This document shows positions 42,361 to 45,269 of a stretch of DNA of 64,000 bases, one piece after another. Both the position numbers and the translations under genes were made by a program. Within the stretch, counting starts at the first letter, position 1. Each line of letters begins with the position of its first letter. The DNA is from the human T2T-CHM13v2.0 reference genome, Homo sapiens. The stretch lies in assembly GCF_009914755.1 (NCBI RefSeq), contig NC_060947.1, one strand, 5' to 3'. The notes beneath the pieces are model-generated. The model searched no databases and had not been told where the DNA came from. It saw only the letters and a program-made list of their open reading frames with translations.

Positions 42361-43124
42361 TGACAGTAAGAAAATCACTTGTACAAATCTTAAACCAATT
42401 CAATGAGCTTTAAAAAAGACATAAAAGAAAACACAGCAAAGCTAATAAAACTGGGTCCCGCTCAGGCTACCCAGCCATGTGCGTGAGAAAAAGAAAAACA
42501 GAACACATTCGTACAGTCTGACACAAAGTACAGCCTTTAATATGGGCCCATAGCAACAAGGAGCATGGTCTTTGTATGGACTCAAGTCATGTTGGGCATG
42601 TTTTTATAAAGCACAGAGAGATTTGTCAGGAACAAGAGGCTTAGGGCACTGGAGGAATGCTGTAGGTTTTTGAAAATCTTAAAGAACTGATCTATAGTTT
42701 TTTTTTTTTCTCAGCCAAAATCATGATAGTGTCTCCAAAGCAATTAAGATACATGCAAACTGGCCTAGGAAGATGAGGGTTCATGCCCTTAGCACCTTGG
42801 CACCACCTCTTTCCCATCAAAACAAAAACAAAAACAAAACACCTGTGTTTCCTTTCAGAAGGCTCTGCCACATATCTCCAGGACTCGGTACAGAGTTTGA
42901 AAGCTGGATAAAATGACACTCTACTTGTCTGGATTTTATTGCCTGCTGTACTCTTCAATTTCCCTTCTAGCCCAGGTTCGATTACAATCAAGGTATGCAG
43001 AAGGCACACAACATGCAATGAACCTGCTACAGTGCCAATTAAGTGCAAATATAACCTGAAAATTAAAAGGAAAATCAAATGCCAACACTATGAAAAGAAA
43101 CTACAGAGAAATAAAGGCAAAGAG

Positions 43125-44557
43125 TCCTTCCAGTGCCACTTGAGCTCCGGAGCACTGGCTCTGCCAGCGCTGAGAAACCGACCAATTTTGTAAAGATGTA
43201 CTGCTGCAATGTGTCTGATGGGATATATTCAGTCACGGTATCCGAACTTTGTAAGACGAACTCTGTGGCAAGGCTGGAAAAGCACAAGAATTTGTTCTTA
43301 AATTATAGGAATCTGCACCATTTTCCACTGGAGTTACTGAAAGATGAGGGACTGCAGTACTTGGAGAGATTGTATATGAAAAGGACCTCCCTGACAACCT
43401 TGGTACAGTATTATACTATAAAAAAATCATTTATAAATGTGGTCCTGATCAAGATACACTGTATGTACCACCCTAAGATAGTCAAACCAAGACTTATATC
43501 CCCTGTTGTTATATACACAGGTAATATAAATACACACACAGGGGTTTCTCATTGGCTATGAATTTGTTATCCAAATCCCTGCTGCTATGAGGTTGCAGGA
43601 GAAATTGTGTAGGGAAGCAAAATATTCACTCTTGTACCACTTATAAAATTAGTCCCCGTTCATAAACCCCTCTTCATTTAGTGTGTGTATCTGTCCTGAC
43701 TTGAAATTTGTTTGTATGTTAAGCTTCTGAGGTGATATTTGGATGTTACTTTGTATGACCTTTTCTGGCTATCACTTAACCTCATTTGAATCTTGTACTT
43801 GAATTCTAGTTCTTACTCATTTTAGATGATTTATTATATCTTATTACTTTGTGAATTCACCCATTCTTCATTCTGTTCTCTATATTGGATTTTCCTAAAT
43901 ATCTGGGAAGTATATCTGATTGGCTTTATGTATATGGCATATTTTCCTGGAAAAGTTTTATTTAATCTGTGAACAATACCTACAGTGGGTAGAAAGCATT
44001 ACAAAATTAGTTTATCTTTGCTGTGTCTGGAAATAGAAAGTAAATAGATATGTATGTTTCTTTTTGTCATTGGCATATTGATATATATGTTCAGTGCCTA
44101 CTTATATTTTTGAAATTAGATTTTTCAGTTTTCCAACTTGGAGAATCTATATACAGTTATACAAACCCTTTTTGCAAAGTCAGTATTGCATGATGTGCAA
44201 CCATACTAGTACTTTTTAACCCTTTAGGCAAGAAGCAGTGTAAGAAATATCTTGTCAAGGATTATAGCCCAGATTTTCCCATGTTTGTTCTTTATGTATA
44301 AAGAAAAATTCATAAGATTACTTATTAACTATCAGTCATAGCCCAATGGGGTAGACTTTGTTCAAAGAATTGACCTTTGCTTATAAAAATTAAAATAAGC
44401 TTTTGGTCTTGTGGTAGTTTCTCAGCTTCAGTTTTTTATTTATGAAAATAAGAACCTACTATACAGTAGACTGATATTTATAATAGCTTATAGCAATATA
44501 TTTTAATTCTCTGCAACCTTTTTAATCATCAAAGATTAAATTGTTGCATATGTTAAA
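43125..44557 (+). pseudogene. Retrotransposed LRRC28 pseudogene fragment: 5'UTR, first 56 codons, then intron-like sequence and a short poly(A)
   Basis: 43235-43402 translates [56 protein letters not shown], matching the recalled LRRC28 N-terminus (MASELCKTISVARLEK...KRNSLTSL) with ATG>ACG. Identical 16-bp TSD AAATAAAGGCAAAGAG at 43109-43124 and 44558-44573; ATTAAA at 44535-44540. Confidence 0.9.
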
Positions 44558-45269
44558 AAATAAAGGCAAAGAGAATAAAAGAACCTGTTTTTAGCCTAGC
44601 AATGCAGCTCCAGTTTTGTTATATAACATTCTATCGTCCCACACATCTGCATACTCTATACCTTTATCAAAATTTGCATACTCTATACCTTTATCAAATT
44701 GGTTGTTTTAGTATATTTATAATCAATATGTCTTATAAAGTTGATTTCATAAATTTATTTAGTGGCATATGGCTGCTCTGGGTTTCTAAGACAACAAATG
44801 TACTTTGCCTTAGCCACCCAGTATCTCATGACTGGTCGCGATCTTCAGGTCTTGAATTTGGGTACTGACAGTACTGAGGTAGTTTTGGCCTAGGGAATGG
44901 CTCCAGCATGAAGGTGGTGGTGGTGGCTAACATTAGAGGTTAGTTTGAAATCCCTGATTTCAGCTGTATAATCTGGGCTGTGGAATAAAAAGTCTTAAAT
45001 CAACCTTAGGGATATTGTCTAAAAGTAGCTACCTGTTACTGCTAAACATTCTCTCAGTGTCTAGTACAGGGCTTAGTAGTTTAGTTTCTTTCTCTCTACA
45101 CCTATTTTGGTTCCAAAGGCATACGGTATATAATATAATAATAATAGTGAAAATGATAATAATAGCTAATATTTAAGTAGTGTTATCTTCTTTTGGAGCT
45201 GGGTAGAGGTGAGGGTGGGGAGAAAGGGAAATTAATCAGTATTGAATGAAATCACTAGGCTGCTTTCTG

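What the first reader, a model, noticed from the sequence alone, without database searches (positions are those of the whole stretch)
43109..44573. Retrocopy of an intronically polyadenylated LRRC28 transcript hidden in the NEXMIF intron
Seen: a 1,433-bp insert bounded by an exact 16-bp TSD (AAATAAAGGCAAAGAG at 43109 and 44558), ending ATTAAA-14 nt-AAAAAA, the hallmarks of L1-mediated retrotransposition. Its 5' part matches 56 codons of the LRRC28 N-terminus (168 nt, 43235-43402). Homology stops exactly at a donor-like TTG|GTACAG, followed by ~1.15 kb of AT-rich non-coding sequence instead of the next LRRC28 exon. Inference: the template was not mature mRNA but a short isoform that read through the first coding exon's donor and was cleaved and polyadenylated in the intron. 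The insert would then be a germline-expressed intronic-poly(A) isoform of LRRC28 preserved as a fossil, mapping its cleavage site.
Basis: partly seen in the sequence, partly recalled or inferred. Interest (0 to 1): 0.8.

Follow-up and report, generated by a model that had tools for sequence, protein, structure and literature searches.

The report
Retrocopy of a truncated LRRC28 transcript
This is an old, dead, L1-made DNA copy of a short LRRC28 messenger RNA that ended inside the gene's second intron, a tidy but ordinary kind of genomic fossil that records an ancient alternative transcript end.

Summary
Window 43125-44557 (+) is a 1,433-bp insert between two exact 16-bp target-site duplications. 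Its only other match in the genome is chr15 at 97.02 Mb. That locus encodes the first 56 residues of human LRRC28 at 100% identity.

The insert joins LRRC28 exon 1 to exon 2 exactly, with the 4.36-kb intron 1 removed at GT..AG. It then runs through the weak exon-2 donor TTG|GTACAG into intron 2. It ends 14 nt after an ATTAAA, where the parent has no A-run. So the template was a spliced, intronically polyadenylated "composite terminal exon" isoform.

The colinearity has two exceptions. The parent carries 395 bp that the copy lacks, most likely deleted in the copy. It also carries the 2.77-kb processed pseudogene HSP90B2P, whose target site is single-copy in the X copy, so it most likely inserted later.

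Divergence is 10.8% in intron-derived sequence and 6% in coding sequence. The copy keeps the pre-hominoid Thr55. Both points suggest an age of tens of millions of years. The start codon is lost and nothing suggests function. This is a new member of a known kind, of modest interest.

The parts
43109..43124 (+). 5' target-site duplication (16 bp)
   Evidence: Exact repeat of 44558-44573. There are 2 matches in the window and 0 expected from 100 shuffles.
43125..43174 (+). LRRC28 exon 1-derived 5'UTR (last 48-50 nt of exon 1)
   Evidence: Aligns to chr15:97015266-97015315 with 42 of 50 identical; 4 of the 8 mismatches are at CpG. The parent continues with the donor GAG|GTGAGT and has GC-box-rich sequence upstream.
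43175..43234 (+). LRRC28 exon 2, 5'UTR part, joined exactly to exon 1
   Evidence: Aligns to chr15:97019674-97019733 with 51 of 60 identical. The parent has the acceptor TTTATAG| immediately before it, so the 4.36-kb intron 1 is removed precisely.
43235..43402 (+). LRRC28 exon 2 coding part: 56 codons with no stop, start codon changed to ACG
   Evidence: 158 of 168 nt identical to the parent. The parental exon is 100% identical to human LRRC28 isoforms. Translation.
43403..44554 (+). Read-through into LRRC28 intron 2 (composite terminal exon), 1,152 nt
   Evidence: Three colinear blocks match chr15:97019902-97020249, 97020655-97021298 and 97024072-97024229. Together 1,012 of 1,135 aligned bases are identical.
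43740..43749 (+). Junction where the parent has 395 extra bp (chr15:97020250-97020644)
   Evidence: The segment is flanked in the parent by the imperfect direct repeat TGAATATTAC / TGGATTTAC. No GT-AG, GC-AG or AT-AC boundary is possible. The 395 bp are single-copy in the genome.
44385..44394 (+). Unoccupied target site of HSP90B2P
   Evidence: The parent has AAAAGTTAAA on both sides of a 2.77-kb HSP90B1-derived processed pseudogene (L005 4798-7564). The X copy has one copy of this site.
44535..44540 (+). Poly(A) signal ATTAAA
   Evidence: Conserved in the parent (L005 7710-7715). Homology ends 14 nt downstream of it in both sequences.
44555..44557 (+). Remnant of the poly(A) tail (3 A, up to 6 if the first AAA of the TSD is counted)
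   Evidence: Sequence. The parent reads TAT at the corresponding place.
44558..44573 (+). 3' target-site duplication (16 bp)

Best explanation
Window 43125-44557 is an L1-mediated (target-primed reverse transcription) retrocopy of a short LRRC28 transcript. It lies antisense in NEXMIF intron 1.

The template RNA started in the LRRC28 CpG-island promoter and had intron 1 spliced out. It failed to use the weak donor of exon 2, continued into intron 2, and was cleaved and polyadenylated 14 nt after an ATTAAA. That makes it a composite-terminal-exon intronic-polyadenylation isoform. It would encode the first 56 LRRC28 residues plus 16 intron-encoded ones.

The copy has since decayed neutrally. Its ATG became ACG, its CpGs decayed, and it probably lost 395 bp between short direct repeats. 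Afterwards the parental intron most likely acquired the HSP90B2P processed pseudogene between exon 2 and the old poly(A) site.

Shown here: the TSD, the exact exon 1-exon 2 junction, colinear read-through into the intron, the end at a poly(A) signal with no parental A-run, and the identity of the parent. Inferred: L1 as the enzyme source, expression in the germline or early embryo, the age, and the order of the HSP90B2P insertion.
For: - TSD: exact 16-bp duplication, 2 matches against 0 expected.
- Source: a whole-genome search gave 4 matches, the window itself plus three colinear chr15 blocks at 88-90% identity.
- Exon 1: the exon-1 piece lies 4.36 kb upstream of exon 2 on chr15. The parent has GAG|GTGAGT ... 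TTTATAG| at the boundaries, and the two exons are joined exactly in the X copy.
- Parent identity: the parental exon is 100% identical over 56 of 56 residues to proteins named human LRRC28 isoforms (P0013, P0017, P0025). In that search 382 of 394 candidates reached E<=1e-5, and every listed protein that a source named for a family is called LRRC28; one is labelled only 'hypothetical protein' by NCBI but LRRC28 by UniRef.
- Weak donor: TTGGTACAG matches 4 of 9 consensus positions, against 8 of 9 for the exon-1 donor.
- Position in the intron: exon 3 lies 20.45 kb downstream at chr15:97040355-97040396, so the end point is inside intron 2.
- Poly(A) signal: apart from hexamers inside the two parent-only segments, the used ATTAAA is the only AATAAA/ATTAAA hexamer in the parental read-through region.
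- Parental 3' context: the sequence after the end point is TATAATGATGTATGTATTTTACTTTGTTTTCTC. It is T/GT-rich and has no A-run.
- Decay pattern: coding sequence differs by 6.0% (10 of 168) and intron-derived sequence by 10.8% (123 of 1,135). This is as expected if only the copy drifts in the exon while both sequences drift in the intron.
- Age marker: the copy keeps Thr55. That residue is seen in 14 of 16 readable mammalian LRRC28 sequences, while Homo and Pongo have Ser.
Against: - The surviving A tail is only 3-6 nt.
- The inferred L1 endonuclease site (bottom strand ...ATTT/CT) is only a loose match to the recalled TTTT/AA consensus.
- The parental intron is not strictly colinear, because of the 395-bp and 2.77-kb parent-only segments.
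- For the 2.77-kb segment, a GT and an AG lie inside its own TSD. Splicing-out of an already-present HSP90B2P therefore cannot be formally excluded.
- No transcript or 3'-end data could be consulted. No protein equal to the predicted 72-residue read-through product was among the 59 hits. No paper links LRRC28 with intronic polyadenylation.
Confidence: 0.9

Rival explanations
1. Same retrocopy, but HSP90B2P was already in intron 2 when the template RNA was made. It was then removed as a cryptic intron using the GT and AG that lie inside its own duplicated target site. On this reading the template was a spliced alternative terminal exon rather than a simple read-through.
For: The target site AAAAGTTAAA offers AAAA|GT on the left and AAAAG| on the right, preceded by a pyrimidine-rich TTTCCTCCCCACC. 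Splicing there would leave a sequence that differs from the X copy by a single 1-nt indel, about as parsimonious as the single G-to-A change needed under the empty-site reading.
Against: - The cryptic donor matches 5 of 9 consensus positions and lacks +3 purine and +5 G.
- It would be a coincidence for splice sites to coincide with TSD boundaries.
- HSP90B2P differs from the conserved HSP90B1 exons by K2P 0.056 (146 of 2,720). Published values are Ks 0.067 and Ka 0.045 (PMC3565874, passages). The X copy and the parental intron differ by K2P 0.118, roughly 0.06 per lineage. This points to a younger HSP90B2P, though the margin is modest.
Confidence: 0.1
2. The template was an incompletely processed LRRC28 pre-mRNA, and reverse transcription was primed internally on an A-rich stretch of the intron. 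On this reading the 3' end does not mark a real cleavage site.
For: The A tail is very short at 3-6 nt. Intron 2 sequence is retained.
Against: The parent has no A-run at or after the end point; it reads TATAATGATG. The end lies 14 nt after a conserved ATTAAA and is followed in the parent by T/GT-rich sequence. Intron 1 was already spliced out.
Confidence: 0.04
3. A DNA-level (segmental or transposon-mediated) duplication of part of the LRRC28 locus onto the X chromosome.
For: The insert contains intronic sequence colinear with an exon.
Against: The 4.36-kb intron 1 is removed exactly at its GT..AG boundaries. Homology stops at the TSDs. The 3' end sits at a poly(A) signal followed by A's.
Confidence: 0.01
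4. A chimeric retrocopy made by reverse-transcriptase template switching between an intron-2-derived RNA and the 5' part of a mature LRRC28 mRNA.
For: L1 template-switch chimeras exist (recalled). The 395-bp gap flanked by a 9-10-nt microhomology could itself be a template jump.
Against: The exon 2-intron 2 boundary in the copy is exactly the genomic one, with no junction artefact. A switch landing precisely at that base is not needed and is unlikely.
Confidence: 0.02

Closest known systems
L1-mediated processed pseudogenes (retrocopies)
   Same: Target-site duplication, loss of an intron at exact splice boundaries, a 3' end at a poly(A) signal followed by A's, a location on a different chromosome from the parent, and neutral decay.
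   Different: Only the first two exons are represented. Most of the insert (1,152 of 1,433 nt) is parental intron, so protein-based pseudogene finders would see at most 56 codons. The gene table supplied with the task lists no pseudogene here.
Partially processed (intron-retaining) retrocopies, cited in the review PMC5470649 as Soares 1985, Baertsch 2008 and Zhang 2014 (passage seen)
   Same: The retrocopy carries parental intronic sequence next to a correctly spliced junction.
   Different: The intron is not retained whole and flanked by the next exon. The transcript ends inside it at its own poly(A) site.
Processed pseudogenes used as fossils of alternative transcripts (Shemesh et al. 2006). 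Only the title was seen, in the reference list of PMC5470649. The paper itself is not held, so its content is recalled.
   Same: The same logic applies: a retrocopy preserves the exon structure and 3' end of an ancestral transcript isoform.
   Different: This is one specific case for LRRC28. I found no mention of it in print (0 papers in each).
Composite-terminal-exon intronic polyadenylation isoforms (recalled general knowledge: weak 5' splice site plus a poly(A) signal in a large downstream intron)
   Same: A weak donor (4 of 9 consensus positions), a 20-kb intron, a canonical-variant hexamer 14 nt before the end, and T/GT-rich downstream sequence in the parent.
   Different: The isoform is known here only from its DNA fossil. 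Present-day use is untested. The HSP90B2P pseudogene now sits between the exon and the site.

Membership tests
L1-mediated processed retrocopy | Flanking target-site duplication of about 7-20 bp | tested here: met
   Exact 16-bp TSD, 2 matches against 0 expected.
L1-mediated processed retrocopy | Parental intron(s) removed exactly at the splice sites | tested here: met
   Intron 1 (4.36 kb, GT..AG) is absent and exon 1 is joined to exon 2 exactly.
L1-mediated processed retrocopy | 3' poly(A) tail directly before the 3' TSD | tested here: inconclusive
   Only 3 A's lie outside the TSD, or 6 if the TSD's own first AAA is counted. This fits an old, eroded tail but is weak on its own.
L1-mediated processed retrocopy | No homology to the parental locus beyond the insert | tested here: met
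   Alignments that included 300-bp flanks stop at 43127 and 44554.
L1-mediated processed retrocopy | Insertion at an L1 endonuclease-type site (TTTT/AA; consensus recalled) | tested here: inconclusive
   The TSD starts AAAT and is preceded by AG, giving bottom strand ATTT/CT. This is A/T-rich but not the consensus.
Composite-terminal-exon intronic polyadenylation isoform | Transcript reads through a 5' splice site into the contiguous intron | tested here: met
   43403 onward is colinear with the chr15 sequence immediately after the exon-2 donor. Exon 3 lies 20.45 kb further on.
Composite-terminal-exon intronic polyadenylation isoform | Poly(A) signal hexamer 10-30 nt upstream of the end, conserved in the parent | tested here: met
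   ATTAAA lies 14 nt before the end in both the copy and the parent.
Composite-terminal-exon intronic polyadenylation isoform | No genomic A-run at the parental end point (excludes internal priming) | tested here: met
   The parent continues TATAATGATGTATG.
Composite-terminal-exon intronic polyadenylation isoform | Direct transcript or 3'-end sequencing evidence for the site | not testable with these tools
   No expression or poly(A)-site database is available. 0 papers hold LRRC28 together with 'intronic polyadenylation'.
Segmental (DNA-level) duplication | Introns retained and homology extending into the flanks | tested here: not met
   Intron 1 is missing and homology ends at the TSDs.

The most novel reading that the evidence does not exclude
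The old LRRC28 intron-2 terminal exon is still transcribed, and HSP90B2P landed inside it in the sense orientation, 1.4 kb downstream of the exon-2 donor. HSP90B2P's own AATAAA lies 169 nt upstream of the host ATTAAA.

On this reading, the reported transcription and peptides of the HSP90B2P 'retrogene' (PMC3565874) depend on the LRRC28 promoter and on read-through of the weak exon-2 donor. That would be an example of a retrocopy gaining expression by inserting into a pre-existing alternative terminal exon.

The X-linked fossil would then be the only record of that exon's structure before the insertion.
Probability: 0.2. Interest if true: 0.45.

Novelty: new member of a known kind. Interest (0 to 1): 0.3.

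Why it matters
The copy adds an unlisted LRRC28-derived retrocopy to NEXMIF intron 1. It also shows that a short LRRC28 isoform, in which the weak exon-2 donor is skipped and the RNA is polyadenylated in intron 2, already existed tens of millions of years ago. The ancestral cleavage site can be placed to within a few bases.

It gives a relative date for two later events at the parental locus: the insertion of HSP90B2P and the status of the 395-bp segment. It also suggests a testable source for HSP90B2P transcription.

The concept itself is not new. Retrocopies as fossils of alternative transcripts, and partially processed retrocopies, are both established. No function is indicated for the copy.

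Tried and rejected
- Splicing as the cause of the 395-bp gap: rejected. No placement of the boundaries within the 10-nt ambiguity gives GT-AG, GC-AG or AT-AC.
- Later insertion of the 395 bp into the parent as a repeat or retro-insert: not supported. A genome search found only the segment itself plus one 57-nt match at 82% identity on chr3 (2 matches). The segment has no poly(A) or poly(T) end. The search skips very common words, so an old, diverged repeat is not excluded.
- A 66-nt whole-genome search for exon 1 found only the window itself. Exon 1 was then found by local blastn in 100 kb of fetched upstream chr15 sequence.
- The protein atlas gave only generic LRR clusters for the 56-residue exon.
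- A search for an annotated protein equal to the 72-residue read-through product found none with full identity among 59 hits. The best-covering hits (P0123, P0125, P0131) are ORFs on short unnamed contigs that read from exon 2 into the intron in other mammals. They are not transcript evidence.
- Age of HSP90B2P from the supplements of PMC3565874: only 3 supplementary files are held. They contain alignments, not the age table.
- Earlier findings of this scan were not open. One literature search failed on term length. Shemesh et al. 2006 is not held.
- Tandem Repeats Finder reported nothing inside the insert.

Full report
**Observation**

None is expected from 100 dinucleotide-preserving shuffles. 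Between the two copies lie 1,433 bp (43125-44557).

The 3' end reads ATTAAA (44535-44540), then 14 nt, then six A's. Three of those A's belong to the TSD, so the tail proper is 3-6 A.

Frame 1 of 43235-43402 gives 56 residues without a stop.

**Where it comes from**

A search of the whole assembly with the insert gave four matches: the window itself and three colinear blocks on chr15 at 97.02 Mb, at 88-90% identity. I fetched that region and aligned it locally. The table gives the correspondence.

| Window | chr15 (T2T) | Identity | What it is |
|---|---|---|---|
| 43125-43174 | 97015266-97015315 | 42 of 50 | End of a GC-box-rich first exon; parent continues GAG\|GTGAGT |
| 43175-43402 | 97019674-97019901 | 51 of 60 (5'UTR), 158 of 168 (coding) | Exon 2; parent is preceded by TTTATAG\| |
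| 43403-43749 | 97019902-97020249 | 300 of 342 | Intron 2, block A |
| 43750-44394 | 97020655-97021298 | 570 of 635 | Intron 2, block B |
| 44395-44554 | 97024072-97024229 | 142 of 158 | Intron 2, block C |

The 4.36-kb intron 1 is therefore removed exactly. From 43403 onward the copy follows the chr15 sequence straight through the exon-2 donor TTG|GTACAG into the intron.

The translated parental exon is 100% identical over 56 of 56 residues to proteins named human LRRC28 isoforms. In that search 382 of 394 candidates reached E<=1e-5, and every listed protein that a source named for a family is called LRRC28; one is labelled only 'hypothetical protein' by NCBI but LRRC28 by UniRef.

A six-frame search with a human LRRC28 isoform placed the remaining coding exons downstream on chr15. 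It also found the X copy as the only other close match. Exon 3, which encodes 14 residues, lies at chr15:97040355-97040396. Intron 2 is therefore 20.45 kb long, and the copy's end point lies 4.33 kb into it today.

**The 3' end**

Homology ends 14 nt after an ATTAAA that is conserved in both sequences. The parent then continues TATAATGATGTATGTATTTTACTTTGTTTTCTC, which has no A-run and is T/GT-rich. This rules out internal priming and fits a genuine cleavage site.

Outside the two parent-only segments, this ATTAAA is the only canonical hexamer in the parental read-through region.

The exon-2 donor matches 4 of 9 consensus positions, against 8 of 9 for the exon-1 donor. A weak donor followed by a usable poly(A) signal in a large intron is the textbook setting for a composite-terminal-exon isoform; this is recalled general knowledge. 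The isoform would encode 56 LRRC28 residues plus 16 intron-encoded ones.

**Departures from colinearity**

*The 395-bp segment.* The parent has 395 bp (chr15:97020250-97020644) that the copy lacks.
- In the parent it is flanked by the imperfect direct repeat TGAATATTAC / TGGATTTAC.
- No canonical intron boundary fits any placement of the gap.
- It is single-copy in the genome apart from one 57-nt weak match.
- I read it as a deletion in the copy, either during reverse transcription or later, between short direct repeats. This is an inference.

*The HSP90B2P insert.* The parent has a 2.77-kb insert (L005 4798-7564, chr15:97021298-97024064).
- It is flanked by a 10-bp duplication, AAAAGTTAAA.
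- It matches 18 exon-sized pieces of a chr12 gene at 84-97% identity.
- Its translation contains the same residues as the HSP90B2P line in a supplementary alignment of PMC3565874.
- Two papers list LRRC28 and the pseudogene HSP90B2P together at 15q26.3 (PMC10196709 and PMC6238305, passages).
- The X copy has one copy of the 10-bp site, so the simplest reading is that HSP90B2P inserted after the template RNA was made.
- Divergence agrees moderately. HSP90B2P differs from the HSP90B1 exons by K2P 0.056 (146 of 2,720). The X copy differs from the parental intron by K2P 0.118 (123 of 1,135), about 0.06 per lineage.
- One caveat: a GT and an AG lie inside the duplicated site, so splicing-out of a pre-existing HSP90B2P is formally possible. 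I give that about 0.1.

**Age**

- Coding sequence differs by 6.0% and intron-derived sequence by 10.8%. That is the pattern expected when the parental exon is constrained and the copy is not.
- Four of the eight exon-1 mismatches are at CpG sites.
- The copy keeps Thr55. So do 14 of 16 readable mammalian LRRC28 sequences, including Old and New World monkeys, tarsier and lemurs. Homo and Pongo have Ser; the Hylobates row was cut off before that position.
- The copy therefore predates a substitution on the hominoid stem.
- Measured against recalled genome-wide distances (human-macaque about 0.06, human-marmoset about 0.11-0.12), K2P 0.118 suggests roughly 35-50 million years. This is an inference from recalled rates. 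No other primate genome was available.

**State of the copy**

The start codon is ACG. Four further residues differ from the ancestral sequence.

A 148-codon stop-to-stop frame (43115-43561) exists. It begins with a new in-frame ATG upstream of the old start. I see no reason to think it is more than chance.

The copy lies antisense to NEXMIF, in the intron upstream of the exon at 19187-19312 (gene table supplied with the task). It is not among the masked repeats listed there.

**Comparison and novelty**

The element meets the tested criteria of an L1-type processed retrocopy: a TSD, exact intron loss, and no flank homology. The A tail and the endonuclease site are inconclusive.

It also belongs with the partially processed retrocopies cited in PMC5470649 (passage). 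The idea of reading ancestral isoforms from such fossils goes back to Shemesh et al. 2006. I saw only its title, and the paper is not held.

I found no paper that holds LRRC28 together with 'intronic polyadenylation' or 'retrocop', and none that holds 'LRRC28P' (0 papers each). Those searches cover only the held library.

The case is a clean new member of a known kind, of modest interest. The one less ordinary lead is that HSP90B2P, reported as a transcribed retrogene with peptide support (PMC3565874, passages), sits inside this old alternative terminal exon and may owe its transcription to it.

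Noticed in passing
L005 4798-7564 (chr15:97021298-97024064): The HSP90B1-derived processed pseudogene HSP90B2P lies in the sense orientation in LRRC28 intron 2, 1.4 kb after the exon-2 donor. Its own AATAAA (L005 7541-7546) is 169 nt upstream of the ATTAAA used by the fossil isoform. It has a 10-bp TSD and almost no A tail.
   Followed up: partly
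window 43115-43561 (+): A stop-free frame of 148 codons spans the retrocopy's 5' part. In the X copy the parental in-frame ATA TAG upstream of the start has become ATG TAC. This creates a new in-frame ATG at 43196 even though the original ATG is lost. It is probably chance.
   Followed up: no
window 44649-44699 (+): Just downstream of the 3' TSD, a 23-nt string (gcatactctatacctttatcaaa) occurs twice at a 28-nt spacing. It is visible. Tandem Repeats Finder did not report it.
   Followed up: partly
chr1:91487105-91488929 (G000:C1): A second, 5'-truncated HSP90B1-like processed copy, 90% identical to HSP90B2P over positions 947-2758 of the query.
   Followed up: no
proteins P0123, P0125, P0131: ORFs predicted on short unnamed contigs in the protein database read from LRRC28 exon 2 straight into the intron (…TTLVQY…). 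These are mammalian genomic fragments in those collections. They show that the GTACAG donor codons are conserved in other mammals.
   Followed up: partly
chr6:65447961-65448777 and chr2:135557912-135558079: Clusters of weak matches (76-81% identity) to a roughly 70-nt stretch (positions 979-1055) of the HSP90B2P query. The chr6 matches are arranged tandemly and probably reflect low-complexity sequence.
   Followed up: no
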